A stretch of 64,000 nucleotides of DNA from Macrostomum hystrix (lineage: Eukaryota > Animalia > Platyhelminthes): positions 13,764,001 to 13,828,000 of the forward strand of contig CATNEN010000039.1 of NCBI GenBank assembly GCA_950097015.1, given 5' to 3'. A program made the translations under genes and the position numbers. Under the pieces are notes generated by a model that worked only from the letters and a program-made list of their open reading frames with translations, had not been told where the DNA came from and made no database searches. This document shows, in pieces, positions 7,655 through 62,030 of the stretch. Each line of letters starts with the position of its first letter. Position 1 is the stretch's first letter.

Positions 7655-8350
7655 TCTTGCTTCGATTCTAGCTCTGATAGTTGCTTCGATTCTAGCTCTG
7701 ATAGTTGCTTCGATTCTAGCTCTGATAGTTGCTTCGATTCTAGCTCTGATAACTGCTTCGATTCTAGCTTCGATACTAGCTCTGATAACTGCTTCGATTC
7801 TAGCTCTGATAGTTGCTTCGATTCTAGCTCTGATAACTGCTTCGATTCTAGCTCTGATAGTTGCTTCGATTCTAGCTCTGATAGTTGCTTCGATTCTAGC
7901 TCTGATAACTGCTTCGATTCTAGCTTCGATACTAGCTTCGATTCTAGCTCTGGTACTTGCTTCGATTCCAGCTCTGATAACTACTTCGATTCTAGCTTTG
8001 AAACTTGCTTCGATTCTAGCTCTGATAACTGCTTCGATTCTAGCTTCGATACTAGCTTCGATTCCAGCTCTGATACTTGCTGCGATTCTAGCTGCGATTC
8101 TAGCTCTGATACCTGCTTCGATTCTAGCTCTGATAACTGCTTCGATTCTAGCTTTGAAACTTGCTGCGATTCTAGCTCTGATAACTGCTTCGATTCTAGC
8201 TTTGGTACTTGCTGCGATTCTAGCTCTGATAGATGCTTCGATTCTAGCTTTGGTACTTGCTTCGATTCTAGCTTCGATTCTAGCTATGAAACTTGCTTTG
8301 ATTTTGGCCCTTATTCTTGCTTCGATTCCAGCTCTTACACTCCAGCTTTA
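7655..8350. repeat. 24/12-bp minisatellite ttgcttcgattctagctctgatag
   Basis: Tandem units read directly; source of the spurious SILALI ORF. Confidence 0.95.
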
Positions 8351-8965: not shown

Positions 8966-11240
8966 ATGACCGGCGCAGAGAAGCTGCCAACAGGCGGCGA
9001 GTCGTCGCTGCGCCAGAAGCTCGGCTGTCTGCTGTCACGCAATACGGGGCCAGGCTGGAAGCGTTACGGCGTCGCCTGGCTCAGCTGCCTCGGCCTCATG
9101 ATCATCCTGGCCATGCGCTCCGAGATGGGCATCGCCATCATCCGGATGACCAGGAAGACGACGCCGGCTGGTAGCACAAATCACACCGGCTTACCCGAGG
9201 TGGCCTGGTCCCACCTGGACATTGGCATCATCGAGGCCTCGTTTTTCATTGGCTACGCCTTGTTCAGCATTCCAGGCGGCTACATGGCCTCCTACCTGCC
9301 GCCGAACTTGTTGCTAGGCGGCGCCGTGCTAGTCACCTGCGTCCTGAACGTCCTGGTGCCCTCGATGGCTCACGTGACTCCCGCCTCGGCTGCCTTCGGC
9401 CTGACGCTGACTGTCCGGCTAGTGCAGGGCATGGCCGAGGGCTGCCTGTACCCGGCTGTGCACGGCATCTGGCGCTACTGGGCACCGGACTCCGAGCGGT
9501 CCCGCTTGGCAACCATCAGCTTCTTCGGCATGGCACTCGGCCCAATCATCGGCCTGCCACTGTCCGGTCTGGTGACATCCACCCTGAGCTGGCAGGTGAA
9601 CTTCTACCTCTATGGCACCGTTGGCTGCGCCTGGGCCATCCTCTGGTTCCTGCTTGTACACGACCAGCCCTCCAGAGATCCGTACATCAGCAGGGCCGAG
9701 GCCGCCTACATTGAGGCGCACAGCGCGCCGGCTTCGAACTCGGACAGTCTGCCAATCAGCGCCATGGCCGCATCTCTGCCTGTCTGGGCCATTGTGGTAG
9801 CCAATGTTGGACGCAACTGGAGCTTCCAGTTCAGTATGATTGGCCTGCCGGCCTACTATGCCAAGGTGTTCGGCCTGAATTCGGAACAGATCGGATTGCA
9901 CCTCATGATGCCGTTCCTACTCATGGCCGCCTTGACACCAGTTGGTGAGCGTGCGCCTTGGGCCTGTAACTGCTAGAAGTTTATGTTAGACATTGATTTC
10001 TTATTCTAGACATGTGTTAGGTACAGATTCCTTGTTATAATAATAATAATAATCATAATTTCACGAGGGCTGTGGGTAACGGCACATCATTTGGTGACAC
10101 TAGACCCGCAGCCAGCGAGGAGGCAATTCTGCCCATATCGCTGACTCCTGAGCACACATGCACACGCGTGTGTACATCTGCCCTGACTTTCTCATCGTCA
10201 GGCAGTGTACACTGTCACTGTGCATTGGAGGTTGGCCCTCAATGGCGTGAATTGCATGACAAGCCCCCAAAGCCTTCTCTCCGCGGCTGCGACCCAAAAT
10301 GAAGAATGCGGTCTCGCCGCGGAATCGAGCTCAGGGGCCTTCGTTCGAGAAGAGAACGCGTTTACTCTCTGCCACCGACCCCCCTTTATTCCTTGTAAAG
10401 CGTCTGTTACTTGTTAGACATCTGTTTGATACCCATTGCCTGTTAGACGTTCATTACTTGTTAGACAGCGGCAGAATCTGTTAGACTTCACAACCAACCC
10501 GCCCCGCGCCCGCAACAGGCGGTTTCCTGGCTGACAGTCTGCGCGGTCGCTACCTGACAACCACCGTCACCCGCCGTCTGTTTAACACAATCGGCTTCGG
10601 CACAATGGCCGGCTGCCTGGTGATTGTTGGCATGTCTCGCAATCTGTACCTGTCAACCGCCTTTCTAACTATTGGCCTCGGCTTCACTGGCATCGGTATG
10701 TCTGGCTATGCTGTCAATCATCTGGACATTGTGCCCAGATTTGCCGGCTTTCTAATGGGCGTGTCCAACGGAATCGGAACCATTTCCGGTAAGTCGCTTC
10801 TAAATGTCTGCCAGAGCGGTCTAACGCGGCGAGGCCACATTCTTCATTTTGGGGCGCAGCCGCGGAGAGAAGGCTTGGGGGCTGGTCCTAAATTCACGCC
10901 CTTAACGATCGTCCTGAAATCTTTCGCAGGCGTCTTGTCGCCGATCATCGCCAGCAGAGTAGCTCGCCACGGAACCCCGGACGAATGGCAGGCTGTCTTC
11001 ACCATCGCCTCCGTCGTGCACGTCGCCACACTGGTGTTCTACCTGTTCTGCTCATCGGGCGAACAGCAGCCGTGGGCTAGCACCGGCGAGACTGAGCGCC
11101 TTATCGACAGTGGCGGAGGTGGCGGCGTTGGCAGCAGCGGCCTCGATGCAATGCGGATGCGCGCCAAAACGGAATCGCCACGCGGTTCGATTGAACCAGT
11201 TGGACCAAATGCAACTGACGAGGAGCCGCTAGCCTATTAG
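8966..11240 (+). CDS. SLC17-family transporter, vesicular glutamate transporter (VGLUT/eat-4)-like; exons ~8966-9944, 10519-10788, 10930-11240
   Basis: Motifs RLVQGMAEGCLYPAVHGIWRYWAPDSERSRLAT, PVWAIVVANVGRNW, GGFLADSLR, SGYAVNHLDIVPRFAGFLMGVSNGIGTISG and SGEQQPWA align with VGLUTs. The start Met at 8966 is inferred. Confidence 0.85.
10036..10387 (-). mobile_element. SINE family 1 copy in intron 1 of the VGLUT-like gene
   Basis: Reverse complement of the 60589 element, with a (TAA)n tail and TSD attccttgt (10027-10035 and 10388-10396). Confidence 0.9.
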
Positions 11241-12954: not shown

Positions 12955-13470
12955 CTAGAAGAATAGTTGCTGGAATCGAACTAAGAAAAGTAGCTAGAAT
13001 CGAACCAAGAACCGTAGCTAGAATCGAACCAAGAATCGTAGCTAGAATCGAACCAAGCATCGTAGCTGGCTGGAATCGAACGAAGAAAAGTAGTTTGAAT
13101 CGAACCACGAATAGTAGCTGGAATCGAAAAAGAATCGTAGCTGGAATCGAACCAAGCATCGTAGCTGGCTGGAATCGAACGAAGAAAAGTAGTTTGAATC
13201 GAACCAAAAATAGTAGCTGGAATCGAACAAAGAATCATCGTAGCTGGAATCGAACTAAGAAATGAAACTGGAATCGAACCAAGAATAGTAGCTGGAATCG
13301 AACAAAGAATCATCGTAGCTGGAATCGAACTAAGAAATGAAACTGGAATCGAACCAAGAATAGTAGCTTGAATCGAACAAAGAATCGTCGTAGCTGGAAT
13401 CGAACCAAGATAGCAGCTGGAACTAAACCAAGAATTGTAGCTGGAATCGAACCAAGAATCGTACCTAGAG
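12955..13470. repeat. ~24-bp minisatellite gct(a/g)gaatcgaaccaagaatcgta
   Basis: Tandem units whose core is reverse-complementary to the 7655 array. Confidence 0.93.
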
Positions 13471-14954
13471 TCGCATCAAGAAAATTTAGCAGTAACAGCT
13501 AATTAGTCGGTTCGGTTAAAAAGGGAAATAGTTTTTTCAACTATATTCTGAAATAATAAATCTTTTAGACTAGAGTTTCGTCCATCGAATCAAAAATTAC
13601 TGCTATATTCTCTATTTTTATCTGTGTTTTGCTTTTTAACTGTTTTCTAGATACCTATTTATTCCAACGCTGTTCTGTGTTCAGATTTTTTTGTTTAAAT
13701 GTGTCGTCCAAAATCAAATTATTGTTCTGTCCTCGGTAAAAATGTTTTATCACACTACGAATACAAATTATTTTATTTATTTGGTACACAAATATTATTT
13801 AACTGCTTTGATTCCGTTTAGTCGTACGTACCTCATATGGTCCTTGTGAAAATGTGTGTCAAACCGCAGATTAAAAAAAAGAAAAACTTAAATACATGTC
13901 TACAAGCTATTTGATGTTTATTGTCTGTCCTGCATCGAAAAAAAACTATTTTTTAACTTGTCTTTGCCTCTTCTGTAATTTAATTAGCGAAGATATTCAT
14001 TTTTATTATTAGTAGTATAGATAAATTGTAGTAGCAGTAGTAGAGAAGCACAATTAATAGAAATTAACAGTAGAACTACCAAGGGAGGGAATCCCCCCCC
14101 TGACAATTTGTTTTGCTGCACCCGAAAGGAACAATGCAAGCACACGAAACTCAAGAACACGGGCCAACTTTTTGTTGCGCATCTTCTGAAATAAGAAACA
14201 AGTCGCCAGCTCTTCAAACCGTCGAGATATTCAATGTTTCTGGCCGAAGGTCCGATTTTTCTTATAAGAGCTAGTGTATTTCATACACCCCTATAAACGA
14301 ATTTGCACTGCGCCTCAGTGCGGCCTTTCCAGACCTTCAAACTTCATCAGCATGTCACCCGAATGTGCCTGCATCATCTCCGACTTCGGCGGTCACCGGC
14401 CTTTATCTATATCTATCTCTCTTATCTATCTAGACCTTCAAGAGCTACAACAGGTGGAACTAGGCCACTTATGGACACCCTGACGCGAATTTCTCCAATT
14501 TCACTGTTCAAGCCTAACTATTAGGCGGAGCTCAACCACAGGACACCCTCAACTAGTCTGTCAACCAATCAGTCACCCCAAAGCATTTTCAGGGGGGTAT
14601 AAAAACGGGGGGCAAAATAGTAGGTAGTCCTACTGTTAATAATTAGCCTGTTTATTAAAAAGTTTATCTCGCACGTTTCTGCACTGAGCCTTCTCTTTCG
14701 TAATTAAAAAAAGCAGAGTGAGAGTGTACAATTAGTGAAGATGAGAAAGTCAGGGCAGATGTACACACCTGTGTGAGCGAGCACCTGCTTACAGTCTATG
14801 TGTGCTTGCGTGCTCAGGAGTCAGCGGAATGGACTGAATGGCCTTCTCGCTGGCTGCGGTTCTACTGTCACCATATGATGTGGCATTGCCCGCAGCCCTC
14901 CTGCAAGTTTTATTACTGTTATATAGAATACGTATAGGCGCTGCTAGGGTTAAA

Positions 14955-36613: not shown

Positions 36614-39600
36614 TCACTTGCCCAATCGAATCACATTGTCCTTTGCTTCAATGCTGAGACTTTTTAGCATCGGTTTGAACAACAACAGCCAGGCGGTTGA
36701 CAGCAGCACAATGAGCATGAAGCAGAACAATAGCATGCGATCGACCACATAGGCAATGAGCTGCCACTCCCGGATGCAGGCAGCCTCCTCTTCAATGCGT
36801 TCCTGCTTGTTGGTCATCTGGCGCAGATGGCCCAGCAGGGTGGTCTGCGTCTCCGAGTTTGGCGTTGTCGTGTTGTGAGACGACGGATGTTGGGCGGAGG
36901 CTTCGCGAATGTACATTGCGCTGCGCGCGGCAGCCGTCGAACCGCGCTGATTGGCTAACGACGAAGAGCGAGCGTACGGATTGGCTAGCAGCCTGACTGC
37001 GGCTCCGTTGTTTCCGTTGTTGTTGCCAATGGTAACCAGTTCAGTGTCGCAAATTGTCACGCTCGGCTGTTGAGCTTCGGCGCAGGCTGTCGAACACGTC
37101 GGCTCCTGAGGATTATTTGGTGCGGCGCCTTCCACTAGAATGCTGGCCTTCCGCATAGTGCTGCGTCTCGAAGTGGGGAACACGGACACTGAGCCTCGAC
37201 TAAACAGCTCGGCGTTGCTGCGCGATACGCAGACAGCGCGACCGAGGTAGTCGGTGACGAAACGATACAGAATGGCCGGCGGGCGACGGTTGGTGACGCC
37301 GCGGTGGTGAAGATTCAGAACTAGAACGGCAAACACCACGGATAATGACGTCAGGCCCATCACAACAGTCAGGTAGACGCCTGTGATGGGGTTGAGTTGA
37401 GGTAAACACAATCAAGATTTTGATCATTTTAACATTTATGACCAATCAGAGTAGATATCTACCAGGAAATGATTTCTGATTGGTTAAAGAAGAACACTTT
37501 TCGTCTATTTCTGGTTTGGTGTGAAATAAAAAAAATCTACTTTATGCCCACAGGTTGGCTAAGAAATGACATCTTTCTATACTTTCTGACTAATTTGGAG
37601 AATTTATTTACATTGTAGACAATCGATCCTTTCTACGAGCTAGTTTGCTGGCGAATACTTATAAGACTGTCGATGCTTTCTGATTGGTTGGAGAAGATAA
37701 GAAGACAAATATTTAAAAAATGTCGATGTTTTCTGATTGGTTGGAGAAGACATCTACGCTGTATAAACAAACTGTCGATGCTTTCTGATTGGTTGGAGAA
37801 GACATCTACGCTGTATAAACTGTCGATGCTTTCTGATTGGTTGGAGAAGACATCTAAGCTGTATAAACTGTCGATGCTTTCTGATTGGTTGGAGAAGACA
37901 TCTACGCTGTATAAACTGTCGATGCTTTCTGATTGGTTGGAGAAGACATCTACGCTGTATAAACTGTCGATGCTTTCTGGTTGGTTAGAGAAGACATCTA
38001 CGCTGTATAAACTGTCGATGCTTTCTGGTTGGTTGGAGAAGACATCTACGCTGTATAAACTGTCGATGCTTTCTGGTTGGTTAGAGAAGACATCTACGCT
38101 GTATAAACTGTCGATGCTTTCTGGTTGGTTGGAGAAGACATCTACGCTGTATAAACTGTCGATGCTTTCTGGTTGGTTAGAGAAGACATCTACGCTGTAT
38201 AAACTGTCGATGCTTTCTGGTTGGTTAGAGAAGACATCTACGCTGTATAAACTGTCGATGCTTTCTGGTTGGTTGGAGAAGACATCTACGCTGTATAAAC
38301 TGTCGATGCTTTCTGGTTGGTTAGAGAAGACATCTACGCTGTATAAACTGTCGATGCTTTCAGATTGGCTGGATCAAATTATTCAAAATCCTATGTCTCA
38401 CCAATCAAGGGCGTGTACTCAGACGTTGGTGGCATATTCTCGGCAATGAGCAGCATAAACACCGAATAGGCTAGCAGTACAGTCAGTCCGAGAGTAACCT
38501 TCTCGCCGGAGTCTGGTGGCAAAGCGAACGAGCTAAGCGTCAGCATCGATAGAAACATGCAGGGAATGATGATGTTGAAAGTATAGTACAGATTCCTGCA
38601 AGGTTGAATATGTATAAATATGAGAATTTCATAACTCAGCTTTTTACAAGGTATATTTGGTGTCACTCGAACCAATTCTGCCCATTTCGCTGACTCCTGA
38701 GCACACACGCACACGGATACTATACTCAGGCACGCACTCACACAGGCCCGACAAGCCCCAAAGGTTTGTATTCGCGGAATCGAGCTCAGGACTGTCGGGT
38801 CGTCTTACCCTCACCTCCTTCACAACAGATCAATGAATATTTTACAAACAAAACGACACTCACCTCCTGCGAATGTGTATGTAGAATGAGATGTCAGGAA
38901 ATGGCTCCTGGCAGCAGGGATAGTACACCACATTCTTCACTACTCGAGTGTCGTGAACGTCCCACTCGCCATTGCTGACTAGATTGCCCAATTCGACGTT
39001 CGGCCTAAGTTTGAACACGTCCAACTGTAGGAATGAAAGCGAGATTGGAAAGAATTAAGTCCCTATTGTTTTAGCTAACTAAAACTAATAAACAAACGAA
39101 CGAACAAACAAACGAACTAACTAACTAACTAACTAACTAACTAAATAACTAACTAACTAACTAGCTAACTAACAAACAAACTAACTAACAAACTAACAAA
39201 CTAACTAGCTAACTAGCTAACTAACTAACTAACTAAATAACTAACTAACTAACTAACTAACTAACTAGCTAACTAGCTAACTAACTAACTAACTAAATAA
39301 CTAACTAACTAACTAGCTAACTAACAAACAAACAAACAAACAAACTAACAAACTAACTAGCTAACTAGCTAACTAACTAACTAACTAAATAACTAACGAA
39401 CTAACTAACTAACTAACTAACTAACTAGCTAACTAGCTAACTAACTAACTAACTAGCTAGCTAACTAACTAGCTAACTAACTAACTAACTAACTAACTAG
39501 CTAACTAACTAACTAACTAACTATCTGTCTATCTATCAATCTATACATCTAACTCACCTGCAAGCCATCGTAGGCCCATGAGCCGAGTTTCAGATAGCAA

Positions 39601-42600
39601 ATCTGATCATCAAACGGGAAGAACGTGATGTCCAGCTTACAGGAGCTCATGAAGCGAACAATTGGAGGCCAGAATACTTCGCCGCCGCTAGAGACCATGG
39701 CTAGAGACTTGTGATAGGTTCTGGACTGGTCCTCGACGCTGAGGATTAAGGTTTCAATGTTGGCTTTCTCTTATTGAAAAGATAAGATGGCAATCGGATT
39801 CTGGAATCGTCTCTAGCAATCGGATTCTGGAATCGCTCTAGCAATCGGATTCTGGAATCGTCTCAAGCAATCGGATTCTGGAATCGGCTCTAGCAATCGG
39901 ACTCTGGAATCTTCTCTAGCAATAGGACTCCGGAATCGTCTCAAGCAATCGGATTCTGGAATCGCTCTAGCAATAGTACTCTGGAATCGTCTCTAGCAAT
40001 AGTACTCTGGAATCGTCTCTAGCAATAGTACTCTGGAATCGTCTCTAGCAATAGGACTCTGGAATCGTCTTAAGCAATAGGACTCTGGAATCGTCTCAAG
40101 CAATAGGACTCTGGAATCGTCTCAAGCAATAGGACTCTGGAATCGTCTTAAGCAATAGGACTCTGGAATCGTCTCAAGCAATAGGACTCTGGAATCGTCT
40201 CAAGCAATAGGACTCTGGAATCGTCTCAAGCAATCGGATTCTGGAATCGTCTCAAGCAATCGGACTCTGGAATCGTCTCTAGCAATCGAATTCTGGAATC
40301 GTCTCTAGCAATCGGATTCTGGAATCGTCTCTAGCAATCGGACTCTGGAATCTTCTCTAGCAATAGGACTCCGGAATCGTCTCAAGCAATCGGATTCTGG
40401 AATCGCTCTAGCAATAGTACTCTGGAATCGTCTCTAGCAATAGTACTCTGGAATCGTCTCTAGCAATAGTACTCTGGAATCGTCTCTAGCAATAGGACTC
40501 TGGAATCGTCTCAAGCAATAGGACTCTGGAATCGTCTCAAGCAATAGGACTTTGGAATCGTCTCAACCAATCGGACTCTGGAATCGTCTCAAGCAATCGG
40601 ATTCTGGAATCGTCTCTAGCCATCGGACTCTGGAATCGTCTCAAGCAATAGGACTCTGGAATCGAACTTTTCCAGATTAATAATTTGAGCTCAGCTCTGG
40701 CTAATAAAATTATCCTTCAAATTCTTGTTCAGCTGGGCAAATTAAATGTCTGACTGCAATCTCTAAACCATTCCTTAGCCAGCACAGCGGAGTCCCAATG
40801 TAGATTATGACATTAATTTCCCCGGGAATGATGCGCGCCTATGAATTCGCAGTATCTTCTATGATTTCCTTTTCCCATTTTTATCCCACGACGAAAGATG
40901 GGAGGCTATAGGGGATTATATTGGACGCCTATCTCAATGAGAAACAGACAGTGTAATGCAAACTTAACGCGAGAATACTCCGTACTAGTACTACTCGAGA
41001 CCAAAAATGCAGCATGCTGGCACTAGCGAATTTCCTGCTCAAATTAATTATTAAGCTGTTCAAAACGAAAATTTCTTGAATTACACAGAGGGGCGTCTGA
41101 AGTCTGCATGTCTGCAAAAATATCATTGACCCACTCACTCTATCCTTGACCCACTCGCTCAATCCTTGACCCACTCACTCTATCCTTGACTCACTTACTC
41201 TATCCTTGCCCACACACTCTATCCTTGACCCACTCACTCTATTCTAGACCCACACACTCTATCCTTGACCCACTCACTCTATCCTTGACCCACACACTCT
41301 ATCCTTGATCCACTCACTCTATCCTTGACCCACTCACTCTATCCTTGACTCACTTACTCTATCCTTGCCCACACACTCTATCCTTGACCCACTCACTCTA
41401 TCCTTGACCCACTCACTCTATCCTTGATCCACTCACTCTATCCTTGACCCACACACTCTATCCTTGACCCACTCACTCTATCCTTGACCCACTCACTCTA
41501 TCCTTGACCCACACACTCTATCCTTGACCCACTCACTCTATCCTTGACCCACTCACTCTATCCTTGACCCACACACTCTATCCTTGACCCACACACTCCA
41601 TCCTTGACCTACTCACTCTATCCTTGACCCACTCACTCCATCCTTGACCCACTCGCTCTATCCTTGACTCACTCACTCTATCCTTGACCTACTCACTCCA
41701 TCCTTGACCCACACACTCTATCCTTGACCCACTCGCTCTATCCTTGACTCACTCACTCTATCCTTGACCCACTCACTCCATCCTTGACCCACACACTCTA
41801 TCCTTGACCCACTCACTCTATCCTTGACCCACTCACTCTATCCTTGACCGACTCACTCTATCCTTGACCCACACACTCCATCTTTGACCCACACACTCTA
41901 TCCATGACTCACCTATTGTACAGGACTATATCCGGCAGCCAGAGCAGATCGCACGGTATTCTCAGCTTTGAGAAGTTTGCATACTCGTCTGGTTGCCAAG
42001 CCAGCCTTGGATCCAGCCACGACTGCGGATTGAAGAAGGAGTTAATTAGGGCGAGAGTTTTAGCATTGTGTTGGGTCAAGTTACCGGCGTTGGTAGGAGT
42101 GGATAGTTGAGATGGTAGAGTGGATTGTAGAGTGCATGATAGAGTATATGGTAGATAGTATAGTAGAGTGGATGGTCTGTTTTCTAAGAAACCACACTGT
42201 AAGGTTTCTAAGAATCCATACTTTCTGGTTTCTAAGAATCCATACTTTCTGGTTTCTAAGAATCCATGCCGTCAGCTTTCTAAGAATCCATATTGTTAGA
42301 TTTCTAAGAATCTTTACTGAGAGGAAAAAAGATGAAAGCAAATCTTGCAAACTTGCCTGATCTAGCCAAACGTTGGTTGCCAGCACTTGGTTTCTCTCGT
42401 CCTGCAAGATGCAAGGATGCAAGGTGGGTCAAGGTTGGAGTGAGTGGGTCAAGGATGGAGTGAGTGGATCAAGGATAGAGTGAGTAGGTCAAGGATGGAG
42501 TGAGTGGATCAAGGATGGAGTGAGTAGGTCAAGGATGGAGTGAGTGGGTCAAGGATGGAGTGAGTAGGTCAAGGATAGAGTGAGTGGATCAAGGATGGAG

Positions 42601-45600
42601 TGAGTAGGTCAAGGATAGAGTGAGTGGATCAAGGATAGAGTGAGTAGGTCAAGGATAGAATGAGTGGATCAAGGATAGAGTGAGTGGGTCAAGGATAGAG
42701 TGTGTGGGTCAAGGATAGAGTGAGTGGGTCAAGGATCGAGTGAGTGGATCAAGGATGGAGTGAGTGGATCAAGGATAGAGTGAGTTGGTCAAGGATAGAG
42801 TTTGTGGGTCAAGGATGGAGTGAGTGGGTCAAGGATGGAGTGAGTAGGTCAAGGATAGAGTGAGTGGATCAAGGATGGAGTGAGTAGGTCAAGGATAGAG
42901 TGAGTGGGTCAAGGATAGAGTGAGTAGGTCAAGGATAGAATGAGTGGATCAAGGATAGAGTGAGTGGGTCAAGGATAGAGTGTGTGGGTCAAGGATAGAG
43001 TGAGTGGGTCAAGGATCGAGTGAGTGGATCAAGGATGGAGTGAGTGGATCAAGGATAGAGTGAGTGGGTCAAGGATAGAGTGTGTGGGTCAAGGATGGAG
43101 TGAGTGGGTCAAGGATGGAGTGAGTAGGTCAAGGATAGAGTGAGTAGGTCAAGGATGGAGTGAGTGGATCAAGGATGGAGTGAGTGGATCAAGGATAGAG
43201 TGAGTAGGTCAAGGATAGAGTGAGTAGGTCAAGGATGGAGTGAGTGGGTCAAGGATGGAGTGAGTAGGTCAAGGATAGAGTGAGTGGATCAAGGATGGAG
43301 TGAGTAGGTCAAGGATAGAGTGAGTGGGTCAAGGATAGAGTGAGTAGGTCAAGGATAGAATGAGTGGATCAAGGATAGAGTGAGTGGGTCAAGGATAGAG
43401 TGTGTGGGTCAAGGATAGAGTGAGTGGGTCAAGGATCGAGTGAGTGGATCAAGGATGGAGTGAGTGGATCAAGGATAGAGTGAGTTGGTCAAGGATAGAG
43501 TGTGTGGGTCAAGGATGGAGTGAGTGGGTCAAGGATGGAGTGAGTAGGTCAAGGATAGAGTGAGTGGATCAAGGATGGAGTGAGTGGATCAAGGATGGAG
43601 TGAGTGGGTCAAGGATAGAGTGAGTAGGTCAAGGATAGAATGAGTGGATCAAGGATAGAGTGAGTGGGTCAAGGATAGAGTGTGTGGGTCAAGGATAGAG
43701 TGAGTGGGTCAAGGATCGAGTGAGTGGGTTAAGGATAGAGCGAGTGGGTCAAGGATAGAGCGAGTGGGTCAAGGATAGAGTGTGTGGGTCAAGGAAGTAT
43801 GCGGGCATAAGAGATTTTTGGGATTTTATGGGATTCGGATTCTGGGATTTAGGGATTGGAGATTCGGGATTTCGAGAAGAGTGGCACTCAATGATAGCTA
43901 TAGGGCGTTCAAATCCCGATTTGGTGGCAAAAAGCTTTAAACTAGAAAATAAAACGCACGAGTTTAATTACTGGTAATTAATTTTTGGAGGGATTTGTGA
44001 AAGACGGACTAATTAATATAGCCTGAGGCGACTTTCCCGACCCCATCCATCCCAATCTTCAGCTCGAAATTCGGGACCCCATTAGTGATATGTTGCTGCG
44101 AATGGGGGATGTTGAAGACTAGTCCAATTTCTGTACCATCTGCTGTTAATAACCATGAATTTATGTGACGTCAATACATAAATATGTGCATGAACGGGGC
44201 CCAATTATACAGACTTATTCACTATTAGTCTAATAATTAAAAACGTGCCATTTGTGAGCCACTTTTACCTTCTGGAATATGTAAAGGCGAATACTATACT
44301 TTTAAACAGTTACTTAAAGTGCTTTTATTTCAATTTTAGTGTACTGTCTGACTGATTTTAAAAAATAGAACTGAAATTTAAAAGGCTACATTTACTGAGA
44401 ACCTTAAAAACTGTTAAAATAAAACTGAAATGTGTCTCTAAATTAAAAAAATTCTGATTGAATAAAAATATTGAAAGCCTAGTTCGGAGAGGGGCGAGAT
44501 GACATGGGGGAGATGGAGGACGAGACATGGGAGAGATGAGACATGGGAGAGATGAGACATGGGAGAGATGAGATATGGGAGAGATGAGACATGGGAGAGA
44601 TGAGATATGGGAGAGATGAGACATGGGAGAGATGAGACATGGGAGAGACGAGACATGGGAGAGATGAGACATGGGAGAGATGAGACACGGGAGAGATGAG
44701 ACATGGGAGAGATGAGACATGGGAGAGATGAGACATGGGAGAGACGAGACATGGGAGAGATGAGACACGCGAGAGATGAGACATGGGAGAGATGAGACAT
44801 GGGAGAGATGAGACATGGGAGAGATGAGACACGGGAGAGATGTGACATGGGAGAGATGAGACATGGGAGAGATGAGACATGGGAGAGATGAGACATGGGA
44901 GAGATGAGACACGGGAGAGATGAGACATGGGAGAGATGAGACATGGGAGAGATGAGACATGGGAGAGACGAGACATGGGAGAGATGAGACACGCGAGAGA
45001 TGAGACATGGGAGAGATGAGACATGGGAGAGATGAGACATGGGAGAGACGAGACATGGGAGAGATGAGACATGGGAGAGATGAGACACGGGAGAGATGAG
45101 ACATGGGAGAGATGAGACATGGGAGAGACGAGACATGGGAGAGATGAGACATGGGAGAGATGAGACATGGGAGAGATGAGACACGGGAGAGATGAGACAT
45201 GGGAGAGATAAGACATGGGAGAGACGAGACATGGGAGAGACGAGACATGGGAGAGATGAGACATGGGAGAGATGAGACACGGGAGAGATGAGACATGGGC
45301 GAGATGAGACATGGGAGAGATGAGACATGGGAGAGATGAGACATGGGAGAGATGAGACATGGGAGAGATGAGACATGGGAGAGATGAGACATGGGAGAGA
45401 TGAGACACGGGAGAGATGAGACATGGGAGAGATGAGACATGGGAGAGATGAGACACGGGAGAGATGAGACATGGGAGAGATGAGAGAATTAGACAGAGTG
45501 AATATGAGACAGAATATTTATCGTAAATTTTATCATTTCAATGAATCAAAAGTGTTTGAAAAAAAACACTTTAAATAACTGTTGCAATTAAAAGCAGTGC

Positions 45601-48104
45601 TGACTCACAATGTCACTGATCATGTTGAGGCTGATCCCCAGACTAATGTTTACAGGCTGTGCTGAGTCAAGTACTGGCCGAACCTTTCTGTCATAGTCTT
45701 TGAGCAGGACTCGAAATAGGCGCTGCTCCGTGGACTCGTGCCTTGTTACCGGCGTGGCTTGGCCATAGACTATGACTGAAAAAGAGACATTTTCTGAATC
45801 ACTCTTTTGTCAAGTATGAATTATTATTAAATCATAATGATGTCCATAGACTATCCATGTCCATAGACAATACGTACGTGGCCTTCTATTCTGCTTCTAC
45901 TTTATAAACATTAACGTGTCTAACAGGATCGTGTTTATCTAACAGGATTGCGTTTATATAACGGGATTGTGTTTATCCATCAGGATTGTGTATCTAACAG
46001 GATTGTGTTTGTCTAACAGGATTGTGTATCTAACAGGATTGTGTTTATCTAACAGGATTGTGTTTATCTAACAGGATTGTGTAACTAACAGGACTGTGTT
46101 TATCTAACAGGATTGTGTTTATCTAACAGGATTGTGTTTATTTAACAGAATTGTGTTTATCTAACAGGATTGTGTTTATCTAACAGGATTGTGTTTATCT
46201 AACAGGATTGTGTTTATCTAACAGGATTGTATTAATCTAACAGGATTGTGTTTATCTAACAGGATTGTGTATCTAACAGGATTGTGTTTATCTAACAGGA
46301 TTGTGTTTATCTAACAGGATTGTGTATCTAACAGGATTGTGTTTATCTAACAGGATTGTGTTTATCTAACAGGATTGTGTTTATCTAACAGGATTGTGTT
46401 GAATTAACAGGATTGTGTTTATCTAACAGGATTGTGTTTATCTAACAGGATTATGTTTATCTAACAGGATTGTATTTATCTAACAGGATTGTGTTTATCT
46501 AACAGGATTGTGTTTACCTAACAGGATTGTGTTTATATAACAGGATTGTGTTTATCTAACAGGATTGTGTTTACCTAACAGGATTGTGTTTATATAACAG
46601 GATTGTGTTTATCTAACAGGATTGTGTATCTAACAGGATTTTGTTTATCTAACAGGATTGTGTTTATCTAACAGGATCATGTTTATCTAACAGGATTGTA
46701 TATCGAACAGGATTGTGTATCGAACAAGATTGTGTTTATTAAACAGGATTGTGTATCTAACAAGATTGTGTTTATCAAACAGGATTGTGTATCGAACAAG
46801 ATTGTGTATATCAAAGAGAAATGTGTATCTAACAGGATTGTGTATCTAACAGGATTGTGTTTATCTTCTAGTATTTGACATAGTTATCTAATTATGACAA
46901 TTTAGATTGTGGTAATCTAAAAAATGTAACCAAGAGAATGTTTCCAAATACACTTTATATAAGAAGAAGAGGTTTAGGTACTTTCAAACGTCCTCCAGAT
47001 TAACATTTCTTGAGTAGGGTTACTTGATACAAGAAAAATCTGACTTCAGGTTGATTCTATTTTGAATTCTCGATCGTTTCGCTGATTGCCATGCAGGTTT
47101 TTTATGCCTGTTTGGCTGTCTGACATGATAGAACGGCAAATTGAGCTGGCTAAATCAATTTGCTAAGTATCGATTTCGATAGAAGAAAGATTTTGTCTTG
47201 CATCTAGAAATCAATACTATTGAATCTTTCCTTTGTAATCCGCTGTTTTAAATATACTATTTATTATCTTAAATATATGATCTTGTCTCTCAAATCTCTG
47301 ATCTCTTCTCTCAAACCCCCGATCTCTTCTCTCAAATCCCCGATCTCTTCTCTCAAACCCCCGATCTCTTCTCTCAAATCTCTGATCTCTTCTCTCAAAT
47401 CTCTGATCTCTTCTCTCAAACCCCCGATCTCTTCTCCCAAATCTCTGATCTCTTCTCTCAAATCTCTGATCTCTTCTCTCAAACCCCCGATCTCTTCTCC
47501 CAAATCTCTGATCTCTTCTCTCAAATCTCTGATCTCTTCTCTCAAATCTCTGATCTCTTCTCTCAAACCCCCGATCTCTTCTCCCAAATCTCTGATCTCT
47601 TCTCTCAAATCTCTGATCTCTTCTCTCAAACCCCCGATCTCTTCTCTCAAATCTCTGATCTCTTCTCTCAAATCTCTGATCTCTTCTCTCAAATCTCTGA
47701 TCTCTTCTCTCAAACCCCCGATCTCTTCTCCCAAATCTCTGATCTCTTCTCTCAAATCTCTGATCTCTTCTCTCAAACCCATCATCCTTGTAACTTTTCA
47801 TCAACTCAAAATTGAAGAGTTCAACTCTTCAAGTACAAAATCGCTGGCTGGTACAAAAAACAAACAGCATAATTCATTCCTTCACCAGCTCGAATAAAAA
47901 ATCTAATCTAGGCACGATTAACTAACCTCATAAAAATGAAGAGATTTTTGGTAAAATTCAAAAGAAATCGGAAATGGGATTCTCAAACCAAAATGGAAGC
48001 GAGATGAGTGACAGATAGATGCACTCACAGCGCGTGCAGAGCAGAACGGAAATTAACCAAATCATGGTTAAGCCGATGAAGCTTCTCTGACAGGCAGACG
48101 ACAT
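36614..48104 (-). CDS. Nicotinic acetylcholine receptor alpha subunit, cation-type (alpha9/10-like lineage uncertain); exons ~48104-48029, 45775-45609, 42401-42357, 42022-41913, 39738-39558, 39025-38864, 38596-38402, 37381-36614
   Basis: Signal peptide, YDRKVRPV, DERNQVLATNVWLDQ, WLPDIVLYN, Cys-loop [26 protein letters not shown], vicinal YPCC, PPDSGEKVTLGLTVLLAYSVF and TM4 EWQLIAYVVDR. Confidence 0.93.
37665..38370. repeat. 48-bp minisatellite ctttctg(a/g)ttggttggagaagacatctacgctgtataaactgtcgatg
   Basis: Tandem units in the last nAChR intron. Confidence 0.95.
39080..39530. repeat. (CTAA)n-type microsatellite
   Basis: Tandem units read directly. Confidence 0.95.
39790..40665. repeat. 26-bp minisatellite gcaatcggattctggaatcgtctcta
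   Basis: Tandem units read directly. Confidence 0.95.
41127..41905. repeat. 20-bp minisatellite ccttgacccactcactctat
   Basis: Tandem units abutting a splice donor. Confidence 0.95.
42023..42356 (-). other. Non-canonical GC-AG intron of the nAChR gene
   Basis: The 45-nt exon ends GATCAG followed by gcaagt (+ strand acttgc at 42351-42356). The acceptor ccgcag rejoins in frame to SWLDPRL. Confidence 0.85.
42420..43795. repeat. 20-bp minisatellite atagagtgagtgggtcaagg, the reverse complement of the 41127 array
   Basis: Tandem units abutting a splice acceptor. Confidence 0.95.
44500..45485. repeat. 16-bp minisatellite gagacatgggagagat
   Basis: Tandem units read directly. Confidence 0.95.
45920..46865. 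repeat. 19/17-bp minisatellite tctaacaggattgtgttta
   Basis: Tandem units read directly. Confidence 0.95.
47280..47780. repeat. 21-bp minisatellite ctcttctctcaaatctctgat
   Basis: Tandem units read directly. Confidence 0.95.
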
Positions 48105-49211: not shown

Positions 49212-50337
49212 TCACTTAAGCTGGGCAAAAAAATCTTTCATCTCGTCTTCGGACATGCTGGAATTAGCGAAAGCCAGAACTCTCAGGGTTCCGTTGAACA
49301 TCGAATTGGCCGATGGAGTTGAGACTCTCATCCCAACATAAGCGCACAACCTGTTTGGCGTGTTGACGTATCCTTGAGTAATTGTAAGCGATGATTTTGA
49401 CAGGAAAGCGTTGTCGAGAAACAGATCATAGGAGCTTCCATTGCTAGTGCTGGCTAGTCCGATATTGATCCAATGGTCTGGACTGGCGGACAACTGGTTT
49501 ACCGACGTCCTGATGCTAGGCAGCGAAATCCCCGTGACACTATCACACCGAACGTACAGCTGTCTGGGACTATTAAATTCCCACATATGGACACCGTAGG
49601 ACGCATTGCTGCCTAAAGTGCTGCATTCGATGAACTCGAAAAACGGCTGCACCTGCGGCTGCCGCTTGAGCCTCAGCAGCCAGGTGAGGCCGGTGGTGAA
49701 GCTGATGCTGGACTTGTTCAGCACTGCATAGGCTGCTGAGCCATCGAACACAGCGCCTTCGCTGCTCCACTGAACAGCCACTGGGTGCAGGCGGTTCGTG
49801 TCCTCATCGGCCTGGCACACCAGGTTCTCCAGTCTGCTCACCTCACCTGCCAGCCACAAATTGCTGAGCTTGGCGCTGATCAGCCGGTGATCGATTGGAA
49901 ATCGGAAGAGCACGGAGCAGCTGGGCCACTTTCCGGTCGTCAGACTGCGACACACCGACTGGAAGGTGAAGACGGAGCAGGTGCGGGCGAGATGGTCGAA
50001 CTGCGCCACCAGAGCTCCGGTCGGCAGCTTCTCGTCGGCCGTCATCACGCAGTGAGCCTCCGTGACGACAGCGAATCGATGGACGGTAGCAGCAGCCGAG
50101 CTCTGGGGAGCGCAGCCCACATCCGGCCGCCTCCAGACGGACACTCGGTTGACGATCAACGCGTCGCAATGGGCCAGCGCGATGGCGATGCTCAGGAATG
50201 CGACAATCACAAAACTACTGATTGGCACTGAAACAATTCAAAAAATACTTAAGGAATTCCAAGAAGAACTCTCAGAGTGTCAGATGTATTCAAGTCAAAG
50301 TATGGATATTGTGCCCGTCGGTTTTACCTTCGGTCAT
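49212..50337 (-). CDS. Secreted PAN/Apple-like plus LamG/concanavalin-A-like protein, paralog A; 10-nt first exon at 50328-50337
   Basis: ATGACCGAAG|gt...ag|TGCCA gives MTEVPISSF and a hydrophobic signal peptide. A Cys-rich segment is followed by GAVFDGSAAYAVL...W.NIG...FNGTLRVLAFANSSMSEDEM, a LamG_3-like pattern. The domain call is by eye. Confidence 0.7.
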
Positions 50338-51299: not shown

Positions 51300-53354
51300 T
51301 TAGTTAAATTTCTTGAATTTACGAACAGCACTCCGCCTGAGAGCTGCTCCGCATCTTATCACGACACGAGTGTTTGCAAAAAACAAACTTGTTCACAATC
51401 TCTGCAGCCACTTTTGGATGCAAAGCGCATGACTCAATCTGCGCCACAAATATATGCTTCCATTCTTGCAAACGCTTGGATGGCTGCGGCTGACGGCTTT
51501 GTCAATCCTTTGAGTGCGTGGCAAGCGACTTGTTGTTTAAGTGCACTCCTGAAGGCTCAGCCGCAGTCGGGGGCACTCGGGGCACTCCAAGACGCGACTA
51601 TTCATGAGTACGAAGCCTCCAACGTACTCAGTCGCCTCAGCAAGAACCGGATCAGGATAATTTAGGTGTGATGTTAATTTAGGCGGCAATGCTAGTAGTA
51701 GACTCGCCTAAAGATCTACTGCCGCTGATGTCTCCTCCAGCTAAATGCGAGAGAGTCATTGTCACTGCGGCAGAGCATTCGTCGTCTTCACAATTCCTTG
51801 TTGCGGAATCCGATCGATCAAGTTATCAATTAATGAAAACATTAATTGATAAATGACTGTTTTGTTGATTGCCAGGAAAAAAAGAACATAATTAGCATAA
51901 AAAATAACACATTATTGTATCTCTCTGTTCTCATTTTCAGATATTTAAATTATTTTAAAACTCACTTCCACGTGGTCCTGGGTCAGCCTGCGAGTGCAGA
52001 GAAAGTCGAGACCTTCATCGATCAGCGCAATCGACAGCTCACGTATAGCAGCGGCTGAGCGGCACCATCTTTAAACTACATTGTTGACCTTTCTGCCTTG
52101 CCAAGCAGACTGGTTGCTTGAAGCCTTTGTCGTGCATGTGGGCAGAGTTCAGCATATCGAAGATATCGTTCACGCGCTGTAGAAAATCTGCCATCTGCAG
52201 GGCGATGAGCTTCATTTCCTTATGGCTTGTCGGTTTCATAAAAGTCCACAACGTGCTGCCATTTTGCCAGCTTGTCATCATCAAAGGCAATATCGTTTTT
52301 CATAAGCGCATTGCGTAGGTTTTTCAGGCAATGTGGTACATCAACAATCACATAAACCGGCTTCTGACTCACAGGGTGATGAAAAAAGGGCATGGATGGC
52401 GAGACCTGTCAATTGCAAAAAATGCATTAAAAAACAAATGAGTAAAAGCCGTTAAGTAATTTGCTTAACACTGCAGATAATACTTACCAGTCTGGAGAGA
52501 TAAGCCCATTAGTGTTGTCTCCTGATCAGCAACAAGAGCGATTACTCGAATGCCGATTTCGTGACTCGCCTGAAGACACTTTTCGATTGCTGCAGCAAAG
52601 CCTAATTGCCCAAAAGTCCGATGAACTGGGTAATAGGCGATAGCTTGTTTCCAGTTGCCGGAGACACCTCGCAAAACAGCGACAATGGCCTCCTTGATCG
52701 GCTTCTGAAGTCGCTGGATATCTTCAACAGAGCTGTTAACACAAAATCCGATGATTTCGTCCTTATGCTGATCGTAGCGAACGCTGGGTGACAGACTCAT
52801 TCCATCGAAGCATAAAGTTGCAAGTCGCTGATCGTCCGGGCCCGTTGCAAGCTTTTGCTTGAGCAACGCCATTGTTGTTGAGCAGACTCCAGGCGAGTGG
52901 AAGAATTGGAATGTCCTGCGCTTCAGAGCAGACTCCGAGGGAAGAGGCAGCTGCCACTGCTTTCGCAGCATCTTATACGCGGCTGGGCTCTTATGATGGA
53001 GCCTTATTGAAGCAGTGAGGTCGTCCTTCGACCATCTCATGCCTCGGGCTGCAATGGCCTGAAGCTTCGTTGCATTGCACTGCTACGGAACTTTACATTC
53101 TTTGCTTTGATGATATACTTCTGTAGGCGCTTTATTGTCGCTTCTTGCCTGTACACGCACTGACGCGTTTTCCTTAACTGGCATGCCAGGTTGCTATCTC
53201 TTGATGTGATAGCCGAATGCGCAGCATTATGCGGCTTTTCAGACTTCGCAGCTGACGGCGAGAGATCATGAGGATACGTAACACCTGGTTCAGCGTCCCA
53301 ACGCTCCAGGTGACGCGGGTAGATGTTATCTGCTTCTTCGACTGTTCTAATCAC
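51300..53354 (-). pseudogene. Disrupted, intron-containing P-element-type transposase
   Basis: RWSKDDL...SPAAYKMLR...LPLPSESAL, LCFDGM, LRGVSGNWKQAIAY, VADQ, DVPHCLKNLRN, NDIFDMLNS and RLTQDHVE. Frameshifts (e.g. near 53040) and apparent deletions. The 3' boundary is approximate. Confidence 0.85.
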
Positions 53355-53520: not shown

Positions 53521-55205
53521 CAAGCATAATATAGGATTTTTCGTTAGATTTCATAAAATAGCCATTTGATTTCGTCCATAGAAGTTGGCAGCACGGCCAT
53601 AAAGTCTATAGCAATATAGTGCGCTGTTTTCCGATCGAATTCATAACTTTGCCACTTCGTTTCGACATACCCAGTAGAAAGGCAACAGAAAAGTCGCTGC
53701 GCTTGTCCAGTGTACAGAAAGAATTGTTAAAAACAGAAAGCTGTGTAATTAAGTCACATGAGGAAGTAGACAGTTGCAACAGTGAAATCAGTTATGTCCG
53801 CCACAGTTAATGCTCGTTCGCTGCAACAAGCTACAAATTTCACATTATCTGCTGCTCATTGATGCACAGGGGCAGAAACCGCATCACATGTCGTTCCCAG
53901 GCAAGGCACTTCGCGGCGGAAATTTCCTCTAGTGCAACGTAGCGGCAGCGGAAAAGCACCATGAGTCTCCACTGCGTTAGGTTGATGCCATCAGGCGGAT
54001 TGCTAAGTTCCTGTTGAAGCTCAGGTGTTGCTAGCTGGCGTATTAGCGATGCCTTGAGACAACTGTAAGCCTGCTCCGCGGTGTTAAGAAATGGAGAGTA
54101 CGGTGGCAGAGTTCGCAGTTGAATACGATTGGCCAGCTGTTGTGGAACCTGTGCATTGCCATGAGCCACTGGTCCCATCCATGATGACAACGCATTGCTG
54201 TCCCTGTTGCAAATTCGGTTCGATTGCTTCAAAAATTCGCACCACGAACTGCCGGAACGTCTGTGCATTCAGGGTTCTATCCAGAAAGTCGGAACAAACG
54301 ACTCCACGTGCAGAAGAGATCGCCAAAAGCACAGAGGCCATCGCTCCTCTCTGAGAATGAACGGGCCGTCGTACGCTTGTCCCTCTGCGGCTTCGTCCTT
54401 GTGATCGTCGGGTCAAGACGTGGAACCCTGACTCGTCCAGGAAAATAATCTCGGTTCCTTGGTCGAGATTTAGAAACCAGGTGGCAAACTCCCTTCTGCG
54501 TTGGATGTTTTCTGGTGTGTTACGAGACACCGTGACGTCCGCATCTTTGCACATTTGCTTCAGCGTGATCAATTGTGCATCCAAGTAGCGCGAGATGGTA
54601 CTGAGACCAATATCGACAGCATGCGTCGTGTGCAGTTTCGCCTTTATCTCCTTTAATGTCAACATTGGATTGTCTTCTATGTCAGAAACGAGTTCTTGTA
54701 CGATTGGATCGGCCAGCTTCTTAGGATTGTTTCCTCCTTTCGGCAGCTTGTCGATGCGCCCAGTCTCTTCGTACACCTTCACTATGGAATACACTGTCTG
54801 TTTGTTGATGTTGAGCCATCGCGCTATGTCCGTCACTTTCTCACCCCTGTTCATTGCTTCAATGACAAGATGCCTTCTGTCGTTTCCAATGGACGCGTAT
54901 GCAGCCATTTTTAGGCACACAAGGAATGTGACTGTTGCCCAGGAAGAGGACACGTTCATATAGGCTTTTCATTTCTATGAGAGGTTTGGCCATAGATATT
55001 CACCCACTGATATCCCAGCCCCCTCTGGCAGTGTTTGAGTCACTCCGCGCGTCAAGTCGAAATGAAGTGGCAAAGTTATGAATTCAATCGGAAAACAGCG
55101 CGCTTTATTGCCATAGACTTTGTGGCCGCGCTGCCGACTTCTATGGACGAAATCAAATGACCATTTTATAGAAATCAAACGAAAAATCCTATATTTGGAG
55201 TGCTG
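53521..55205 (-). mobile_element. Tc1/mariner (IS630-like) DNA transposon nested in the P element
   Basis: Imperfect TIRs of about 140 bp (53521-53666 and 55056-55205) flanked by TA on both sides (53519-53520 and 55206-55207), with an internal DDE transposase. Confidence 0.9.
53840..54908 (-). pseudogene. Tc1/IS630-type transposase with a single frameshift near 54175
   Basis: HTH motifs (VTDIARWLNINKQTVYSIV; LTLKEI...GLSTISRYL), FLDESG, VVIMDG / PVAH and LPPYSPFLNTAE. D-to-E spacing is about 33-34 residues. Confidence 0.88.
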
Positions 55206-56287: not shown

Positions 56288-57412
56288 TCAGCCAATCAGA
56301 GCAAAGAAGTCGCGAATCTCGGCCTCGGTCATGCTGACGTTAGCTAAGGCAAGAGCTCGAATTGACCCTTTCAACATAAAGTTTCTAGGACTGTCAATGC
56401 GCATTCCGAGATACATGCAGGCTGTTGTGTCGATCACATTACAGGTCAATAAGTCAAGATTTTGTGTTATGCCAACTCTAGGTAGGAAGGATCCTGAAGC
56501 AAAGAAATCATAGACGCTCCCACTGATGGTGAAGCCGATGTTCAACCATTCGCTTGAGTTAGCCGACAGAGTTGACCCTGGTGTAAAAAGAAAGTTTACC
56601 TTGACTCCAGTGATTCTGTTCACTCTAGCATAGAGTACTCGAGGGACGTTGAACTCCCATAAATGAATCCCATATCCAGAAAATGCTCCCAGTGATTCGC
56701 AGCTCGTCATTTCGAAGAACGGCTGCACCTGCGGCTGCCGCTTGAGCCTCAGCAGCCAGGTGAGGCCGGTGGTGAAGCTGATGCTGGACTTGTTCAGCAC
56801 TGCATAGGCTGCTGAGCCATCGAACACAGCGCCTTCGCTGCTCCACTGAACAGCCACTGGGTGCAGGCGGTTCGTGTCCTCATCGGCCTGGCACACCAGG
56901 TTCTCCAGTCTGCTCACCTCACCTGCCAGCCACAAATTGCTGAGCTTGGCGCTGATTAGCCGGTGATCGATTGGAAATCGGAAGAGCACGGAGCAGCTGG
57001 GCCACTTTCCGGTCGTCAGACTGCGACACACCGACTGGAAGATGAAGACGGAGCAGGTGCGGGCGAGATGGTCGAACTGCGCCACCAGAGCTCCGGTCGG
57101 CAGCTTCTCGTCGGCCGTCATCACGCAGTGAGCCTCCGTGACGACAGCGAATCGATGGACGGCAGCAGCAGCCGAGCTCTGGGGAGCGCAGCCCACATCC
57201 GGCCGCCTCCAGACGGACACTCGGTTGACGATCAACGCGTCGCAATGGGCCAGCGCGACGGCGATGCTCAGGAATGCGACAGTCACAAAACTACTGATTG
57301 GCACTGAAACAATTCAACAATACTTATGGAATTCCAAGAAGAACTCTCAGAGTGTCAGATGTATTCAAGTCAAAGTATGGATATTGTGCCCGTCGGTTTT
57401 ACCTTCGGTCAT
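56288..57412 (-). CDS. Secreted PAN/LamG-like protein, paralog B; 10-nt first exon at 57403-57412
   Basis: Same exon structure and near-identical N-terminal ~200 aa as paralog A. The diverged C-terminus keeps YGIHLWEFN, WLNIG and GMR...GSIRALALAN. Confidence 0.7.
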
Positions 57413-61589: not shown

Positions 61590-62030
61590 CAGGAAGTGAG
61601 CAGAATAGGAAGTGAGCAGAGAAGGAAGTGAGCAGAGGAGGAAGTGAGCAGAGAAGGAAGTGAGCAGAATAGGAAGTGAGCAGAGAAGGAAGTGAGCAGA
61701 GGATGAAGTGAGCAGAGTAGGAAGTGAGCAGAGAAGGAAGTGAGCAGAGAAGGAAGTGAGCAGAGAAGGAAGTGAGCAGAGAAGGAAGTGAGCAGAGAAG
61801 GAAGTGAGCAGAGAAGGAAGTGAGCAGAGAAGGAAGTGAGCAGAGAAGGAAGTGAGCAGAGAAGGAAGTGAGCAGAGAAGGAAGTGAGCAGAGGAGGAAG
61901 TGAGCAGAGAAGGAAGTGAGCAGAGAAGGAAGTGAGCAGAGGAGGAAGTGAGCAGAGAAGGAAGTGAGCAGAGGAGGAAGTGAGCAGAGTAGGAAGTGAG
62001 CAGAGAAGAAGTGAGCACAGTAGGAAGCTC
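61590..62030. repeat. 16-bp minisatellite ggaagtgagcagagaa
   Basis: Tandem units starting right after the stop codon of the 62032 ORF. Confidence 0.95.

What the first reader, a model, noticed from the sequence alone, without database searches (positions are those of the whole stretch)
41127..43795. Reverse-complementary minisatellite arrays clamp two nAChR exons: candidate dsRNA switch for back-splicing, skipping or editing
Seen: ~780 bp of (ccttgacccactcactctat)n and ~1370 bp of its reverse complement lie within about 20 nt of the outer splice sites of the 110-nt (41913-42022) and 45-nt (42357-42401) exons. These exons are joined by a weak GC-AG intron. The pre-mRNA could form a stem of up to ~780 bp, pairing in many registers and looping out both exons. 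Together they are 155 nt, so skipping shifts the frame, and they encode ligand-binding loops D and A. Known: flanking inverted repeats (Alu pairs) drive circRNA formation and ADAR editing. Inference: a minisatellite-based, copy-number-tunable version of that mechanism.
Basis: partly seen in the sequence, partly recalled or inferred. Interest (0 to 1): 0.78.

Follow-up and report, generated by a model that had tools for sequence, protein, structure and literature searches.

The report
Mirror repeats flank flatworm receptor exons
In a flatworm acetylcholine-receptor gene, two mirror-image arrays of one 20-base repeat sit on either side of two small exons and are predicted to zip together in the RNA and cover a splice site; this is likely an accident of local repeat copying, and no circular, skipped or edited RNA has been seen.

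Summary
A 40-unit array (41121-41912) and a 69-unit reverse-complement array (42424-43795) bracket exons 3-4 of an intact nAChR alpha gene in a Macrostomum-like flatworm. They share variants but have private internal blocks (longest exact match 68 bp), so a mirror misassembly is unlikely. A ~760-bp RNA stem is predicted.

The switch reading is not supported. The exon-4 donor is itself the first repeat unit and is buried in 188 of 200 sampled folds. The exon-3 acceptor is free in all 200, which is poor geometry for back-splicing. Variants show no sign of preserving pairing. All 3 related array pairs in the window lie under 5 kb apart (2 inverted, 1 direct), which points to local repeat seeding. 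The 155-nt frameshifting block is ancestral gene architecture.

Best reading: a by-product duplex, probably edited within the introns, with at most minor skipping or circle formation. No RNA run was listed, so nothing was tested at RNA level. The scan noted the same geometry before in an octopus, an insect nAChR gene and a ray (unchecked notes). Interest 0.3.

The parts
42424..43795 (-). Array A2 in intron 2 (5' arm on the pre-mRNA): ~69 x 20 bp, 74% pyrimidine, no AG dinucleotide on the sense strand, 127 branch-like YTNAY motifs; ends 22 nt before the exon-3 acceptor
42357..42401 (-). Exon 3, 45 nt, phase 0/0 (loop D region)
42023..42356 (-). Intron 3, 334 nt, GC-AG with a full-consensus GC donor; holds a 24-bp repeat (42181-42319) and a decayed stretch (about 42030-42176) weakly like A2 in the same orientation
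   Evidence: 8 of 500 shuffles reach the score; stretch chosen by eye
41913..42022 (-). Exon 4, 110 nt, phase 0/2 (loop A region, recalled label)
41121..41912 (-). Array A1 in intron 4 (3' arm): ~40 x 20 bp, purine-rich on the sense strand; its first unit spans the exon-4 donor and 28 GTRAGT pseudo-donors follow
36614..48065 (-). Host gene: nAChR alpha subunit (alpha9/10-like, acr-16-like by the names of its nearest hits), 8 coding exons with open frames, Cys-loop and vicinal Cys-Cys. Exons 48065-48029 (read by eye), 45775-45609, 42401-42357, 42022-41913, 39738-39558, 39024-38864, 38595-38402, 37380-36614

Best explanation
Two reverse-complementary arrays of one 20-bp unit bracket exons 3-4 of an intact nAChR gene; they likely arose by accident, when a few units were copied about 0.5 kb away in inverted orientation and each array then expanded alone, and they are predicted to form a long RNA stem whose likely effects are incidental intronic editing and at most minor mis-splicing. 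Shown: geometry, common ancestry of the arrays, separate later expansion, overlap of the 3' array with the exon-4 donor, and other locally related array pairs in the window. Inferred: the copy was made by a short template switch or templated insertion at a microhomology. The unit carries the donor hexamer on one strand and its complement on the other, so it either grew from the donor or landed on it. Each orientation is the one its position tolerates: AG-free and pyrimidine-rich before the acceptor, donor-like after the donor. Inferred: most transcripts splice normally, because intron 2 can be committed and U1 can take the first donor before the 3' array is fully made. In transcripts where both arms coexist the stem forms, is probably edited by ADAR (about 0.6 if the gene is expressed with ADAR), and favours loss of exons 3-4 to a stop-containing message over back-splicing, because it covers the donor.
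For: Local kinship: of 300 pairs among 25 arrays, blastn finds 3 related pairs, all under 5 kb apart; 52 of 300 pairs are that close, P=0.005. The 4 top unit-level similarities of 600 comparisons are also all under 5 kb apart. One pair is direct (2623/4193). One inverted pair (7656/12959, 67%) flanks the whole VGLUT coding region rather than internal exons. Common ancestry: 5 multi-copy variants are shared between 7 in A1 and 8 in A2 (P=2e-4 over 60 possible changes; 0.014 on transitions only). Separate expansion: private higher-order blocks, longest exact match 68 bp. No selection for pairing visible: 1 of 8 transition kinds in A1 and 4 of 6 in A2 keep a G-U pair, 5 of 14 together. Closeness to splice sites is common here: 6 of 28 arrays lie within 35 nt and 11 of 28 within 60 nt of a site read by eye (after dropping two false donors). 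An 81-nt SINE-like inverted pair also flanks VGLUT exon 2 (89%). A distant animal's homologue has the same outer boundaries as one 155-nt exon and no tandem repeats (L002). Donor-spanning VNTR pseudo-sites normally stay silent in human F7 (PMC1557585, abstract). Microhomology template switching makes short inverted insertions in yeast (PMC11724301, abstract).
Against: No RNA or population data were seen, so neutrality is inferred. Zebrafish largely avoids cross-exon pairing of complementary repeats (PMC4691745, section 5), so a 760-bp cross-exon stem should cost something; its persistence may mean tolerance or use. The local-kinship result rests on 3 pairs in one window. The splice-tolerance filter is clear at this locus (0 versus 18 AG per 100 nt) but is not significant across the window: 9 of 15 arrays near an acceptor have fewer AG on the sense strand, 11 of 15 are pyrimidine-rich. 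An unchecked scan note reports the same geometry around two small exons of an insect nAChR gene.
Confidence: 0.62

Rival explanations
1. Cis-antisense dosage dial. The 69-unit upstream array acts as a built-in antisense strand against the exon-4 donor; the stem covers the donor, exons 3-4 are skipped in a sizeable share of transcripts, and the frameshifted message is destroyed, so array length sets receptor level (selected or not).
For: Donor hexamer paired to A2 in 188 of 200 sampled folds. A2 is 1.7 times A1, so A1 can be covered in dozens of registers. The skip product stops 16 codons into exon 5. Looping-out by complementary introns is a described mechanism (PMC9198270, passages).
Against: Equilibrium folding ignores co-transcriptional splicing and U1 binding. 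The gene is intact and conserved, so linear splicing must dominate. No variant pattern favours pairing.
Confidence: 0.17
2. One reading: a selected, minisatellite-based equivalent of Alu pairs that yields a regulated circular RNA of exons 3-4 or directs editing of the receptor message.
For: Complementary arms in both flanking introns. Short or ~800-nt inverted repeats suffice for circles (PMC4201285, passages). Planarian ADARs are brain-enriched and edit mRNA (PMC8797187, passages). A similar unchecked note exists for an insect nAChR gene.
Against: Donor buried and acceptor up to ~280 nt from the stem base. The circle would be 155 nt, or 489 nt with intron 3 kept; ZKSCAN1 exons of 400 nt or less circularised poorly, and G-U wobbles or low complexity inhibited (PMC4201285, passages). 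A 538-nt tract carries 16-21 G-U pairs in the registers printed. The circle has no ATG-led open frame. The stem is intronic, so recoding of the exons is not expected.
Confidence: 0.1
3. Remnant of a foldback-type transposon whose inverted arms are made of tandem repeats.
For: Inverted arms built of tandem units resemble foldback elements (recalled).
Against: The outer flanks do not match and show no target-site duplication. The enclosed DNA is native exons in order and frame. No other copy of the unit occurs in 64 kb.
Confidence: 0.04
4. Local misassembly (a fold-back chimera) created the inverted copy.
For: Macrostomum genomes are repeat-rich and hard to assemble (PMC5730564, passages). No reads were seen.
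Against: Longest exact inverted match is 68 bp; each array has private variants and block structure. Unique flanks are not mirrored. Exons are in order.
Confidence: 0.03

Closest known systems
Inverted-repeat-flanked exonic circRNA loci (human ZKSCAN1, HIPK3, EPHB4; mouse Sry); Liang and Wilusz, PMC4201285 (passages)
   Same: Reverse-complementary sequence in both flanking introns; stem far longer than the 30-40 nt shown to suffice.
   Different: Arms are a tandem 20-mer found nowhere else in the window, not a dispersed SINE. They pair in many registers. One arm includes the donor. The enclosed exons are short. No circle has been shown.
Human F7 intron 7 37-bp VNTR spanning the exon-intron boundary; PMC1557585 (abstract)
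   Same: First repeat unit spans the authentic donor and is followed by many pseudo-donors.
   Different: F7 pseudo-sites are identical to the real site; here they are weaker (5-6 of 11 against 7 of 11). Here an inverted copy of the array sits two exons upstream.
Zebrafish (AC)m-(GT)n intron bridging; PMC4691745 (passages and section 5)
   Same: Complementary simple repeats next to splice sites that can pair in the pre-mRNA.
   Different: The fish repeats pair across one intron and promote splicing. This pair lies across exons, the arrangement zebrafish largely avoids.
nAChR exon-3 skipping in insect alpha6; PMC5111602 (passages)
   Same: The same 45-nt loop D exon.
   Different: There exon 3 alone is skipped in frame. 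Here the stem encloses exons 3 and 4, and their loss shifts the frame.

Membership tests
Inverted-repeat-driven circRNA locus | Reverse-complementary sequence in both flanking introns | tested here: met
   91.6% over 794 nt
Inverted-repeat-driven circRNA locus | Arms predicted to pair stably | tested here: met
   760 pairs, -1645 kcal/mol; each arm alone -115 and -23
Inverted-repeat-driven circRNA locus | Back-splice donor and acceptor free and brought together | tested here: inconclusive
   Donor paired in 188 of 200 folds, acceptor region paired to A1 in 0 of 200; equilibrium model only
Inverted-repeat-driven circRNA locus | Back-splice junction in RNA | not testable with these tools
   No RNA holder listed
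ADAR-edited intronic duplex | A-to-G mismatches in RNA over the arms | not testable with these tools
   No RNA holder listed
Donor-spanning VNTR (F7 intron 7 type) | First unit spans the exon-intron boundary | tested here: met
   Terminal unit V; distance 1 nt
Donor-spanning VNTR (F7 intron 7 type) | Run of pseudo-donors behind the real donor | tested here: met
   28 GTRAGT sites, weaker than the real site
Donor-spanning VNTR (F7 intron 7 type) | Length polymorphism among individuals; pseudo-sites silent | not testable with these tools
   No reads or second haplotype
Fish (AC)m-(GT)n intron bridging | Complementary repeats at the two ends of the same intron | tested here: not met
   Arms lie in introns 2 and 4
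Foldback transposon | Matching outer ends with a target-site duplication | tested here: not met
   Flanks printed; feature list recalled
Foldback transposon | Dispersed copies | tested here: inconclusive
   None in the 64-kb window; no genome held
nAChR alpha subunit (host gene) | PF02931 and PF02932, Cys-loop, vicinal Cys-Cys in loop C | tested here: met
   exons 6-7 by tblastn

The most novel reading that the evidence does not exclude
A minisatellite born at a splice donor seeded an inverted copy two exons upstream, and that copy works as a built-in antisense strand against its own donor. Repeat copy number then tunes skipping and decay of the receptor message. The same local seeding could create such dials at many genes in repeat-rich flatworm genomes.
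Probability: 0.15. Interest if true: 0.75.

Novelty: new member of a known kind. Interest (0 to 1): 0.3.

Why it matters
If it is a by-product, the locus is still a clean natural test of how a spliceosome copes with a 760-bp cross-exon stem and 28 decoy donors. It also hints that flatworm minisatellites spread by short-range copying in either orientation. If the stem does control skipping, a fast-mutating repeat would set receptor dose through RNA structure with no transposon involved, in a genus that has transgenics (PMC5730564, search listing).

Tried and rejected
No whole genome is held, so the genome-wide test of inverted versus direct pairs was not possible. The sequencing-run search on the last exon listed no RNA holder; this is no evidence on expression, and no reads could be laid. 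The last exon found no homologue at E<=0.001 among 2626 long candidates. No protein identical to this nAChR appeared among the 120 of 169 hits listed. The metagenome scan gave 3 distant loci, only one of which reaches exons 3-4. A window-wide rule that arrays avoid AG before acceptors was tested and is weak (9 of 15). Two putative donors next to arrays (11302, 62033) were dropped because they lie at or after stop codons. The pair 44522/47267 around exon 2 scores weakly as inverted (p=0.015 among 600 comparisons) and has no blastn hit; treated as compositional. Paper searches with no relevant hit: Macrostomum + minisatellite + intron, 0; minisatellite + inverted + back-splicing + flanking introns, 0; Macrostomum + minisatellites, 1 unrelated. 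The 2015 M. lignano genome paper is not held, so what it says on minisatellites was not seen. No supplements were read.
Full report
Setting. The window is animal DNA with many intronic minisatellites: TRF gives 58 rows, about 28 distinct arrays. A neighbouring transporter exon is 87% identical to a Macrostomum lignano protein, and the best non-Macrostomum or unnamed hit is 47%. The source is therefore likely a Macrostomum-like flatworm. In M. lignano simple and tandem repeats make up 15% of the genome (PMC5730564, passages). No whole genome is held.

The gene. The finding lies in a minus-strand nAChR alpha gene of 8 coding exons. Exons 2, 4 and 5 match PF02931 positions 1-40, 56-91 and 98-151, and exon 8 matches PF02932. 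The 15-residue gap is filled by the 45-nt exon 3, which is 80-87% identical to 4 of 4 homologues tried. All frames are open; the Cys-loop and vicinal cysteines are present. The nearest named hits are mollusc, annelid and nemertean proteins, mostly labelled alpha-10-like or acr-16-like.

The arrays. A1 (41121-41912) has 40 units and A2 (42424-43795) has 69. They are 91.6% reverse-complementary over 794 nt. All 105 matches to the unit in the window fall in them. Five multi-copy variants are shared (P=2e-4, or 0.014 counting transitions only), so several units were copied or exchanged. Each array also has private variants and private repeated blocks, and the longest exact match is 68 bp. The arrays have expanded separately, and a mirror-image assembly error is unlikely.

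Relation to splice sites. A1 begins at the exon-4 donor, which is a degenerate first unit. Behind it lie 28 pseudo-donors that match the U1 consensus at 5-6 of 11 positions, against 7 for the real site (consensus recalled). This is the layout of the human F7 intron 7 VNTR, whose pseudo-sites normally stay silent (PMC1557585, abstract). A2 ends 22 nt before the exon-3 acceptor. It has no AG on the sense strand, is 74% pyrimidine and holds 127 branch-like motifs; its other strand has 18 AG per 100 nt. Each orientation thus suits its position. Across the window this filter is weak: 9 of 15 arrays near acceptors have fewer AG on the sense strand. The GC donor of intron 3 matches the consensus at 9 of 11 positions, the best of 7 donors. 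That is typical of GC sites, which are slower but compensated (PMC3167603, passages).

The predicted RNA. Folding 2.8 kb gives 760 A2-A1 pairs at -1645 kcal/mol; a 538-nt tract of A1 pairs more than 85% in 42 of 835 offsets. In 200 sampled structures the donor hexamer is paired to A2 in 188. The last 40 nt before the exon-3 acceptor are paired to A1 in 0, and the preferred register leaves about 280 nt of A2 in the loop. The stem is therefore lopsided: it covers the donor needed for back-splicing. The circle would be 155 nt (489 with intron 3). Short exons, wobbles and low-complexity arms each hindered circularisation in human reporters (PMC4201285, passages). Skipping both exons, or exon 4 alone, stops 16 codons into exon 5. 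These are equilibrium predictions; splicing during transcription could pre-empt them.

Is it selected? Three checks give no sign of it. First, only 5 of 14 transition-type variant kinds keep a G-U pair. Second, related arrays are a local habit of this DNA: 3 related pairs among 300, all under 5 kb apart (P=0.005), two inverted and one direct. The other inverted pair flanks a whole coding region, and a SINE-like inverted pair flanks another exon. Third, closeness to splice sites is common (6 of 28 arrays within 35 nt, two false donors dropped), and the 155-nt block with these boundaries exists as a single repeat-free exon in a distant animal (L002). Against this reading: zebrafish largely avoids cross-exon complementary repeats (PMC4691745), so persistence here is not trivial; the sample is one window; and an unchecked scan note describes the same geometry in an insect nAChR gene.

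Mechanism. Most likely (0.62) a few units were copied across about 0.5 kb in inverted orientation by a microhomology-guided template switch, a process shown in yeast (PMC11724301, abstract), and then expanded. Whether A1 or A2 came first is not settled: the donor overlap suggests A1, and a decayed A2-like stretch in intron 3 (8 of 500 shuffles, chosen by eye) suggests an older pyrimidine-rich source. Planarian ADARs are brain-enriched and edit mRNA (PMC8797187, passages), so intronic editing of the stem is plausible. Rivals: a donor-masking dosage dial (0.17), the selected circRNA or editing switch (0.10), a foldback remnant (0.04), misassembly (0.03).

Limits. No RNA holder was listed, so circles, skipping and editing are untested. 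Searches for a published minisatellite case found none, within a library that lacks most subscription journals. Other papers seen: PMC9198270 (passages), PMC10078293 (passages), PMC5111602 (passages).

Verdict. A real and striking geometry, best filed as another inverted-repeat pair across exons with an F7-like donor-spanning arm. Function is unshown. Interest 0.3.

Noticed in passing
window 7656-8337 and 12959-13482: Older inverted minisatellite pair (67% over 536 nt) on either side of the VGLUT-like coding region (8966-11236).
   Followed up: partly
window 2623-2712 and 4193-4619: Same 16-bp array in direct orientation in two introns of a TRPA-like channel gene (name by eye), three exons apart.
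   Followed up: partly
window 10241-10321 and 10825-10903: Inverted fragments (89%, 81 nt) of a dispersed SINE-like repeat flank VGLUT exon 2; the family has about ten copies in the window in both orientations.
   Followed up: partly
window 53528-55195: Tc1/mariner-like element (label by eye): 140-nt inverted ends at 91%, transposase-like frame split in two (54084-54968, 53840-54268).
   Followed up: partly
window 49212-50237 and 56288-57313: Two single-exon 341-aa ORFs with a hydrophobic N-terminus, 98% identical over 772 nt and then abruptly divergent in the C-terminal domain; possible recent conversion or domain swap. They bracket the transposon remnants.
   Followed up: no
window 51300-53100: Decayed P-element/THAP9-like transposase fragments (label by eye).
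   Followed up: no
window 39075-39544: nAChR intron 5 is almost wholly a (TTAG)n tract on the sense strand: 20 AG per 100 nt, starting 14 nt after the donor.
   Followed up: no
window 61591-62027: A 16-bp array starts immediately after the stop codon of a small membrane-protein gene; the VGLUT stop is likewise followed by an array within about 80 nt.
   Followed up: partly
L002:566-720: In a distant animal's nAChR gene, exons 3 and 4 are a single 155-nt exon.
   Followed up: yes
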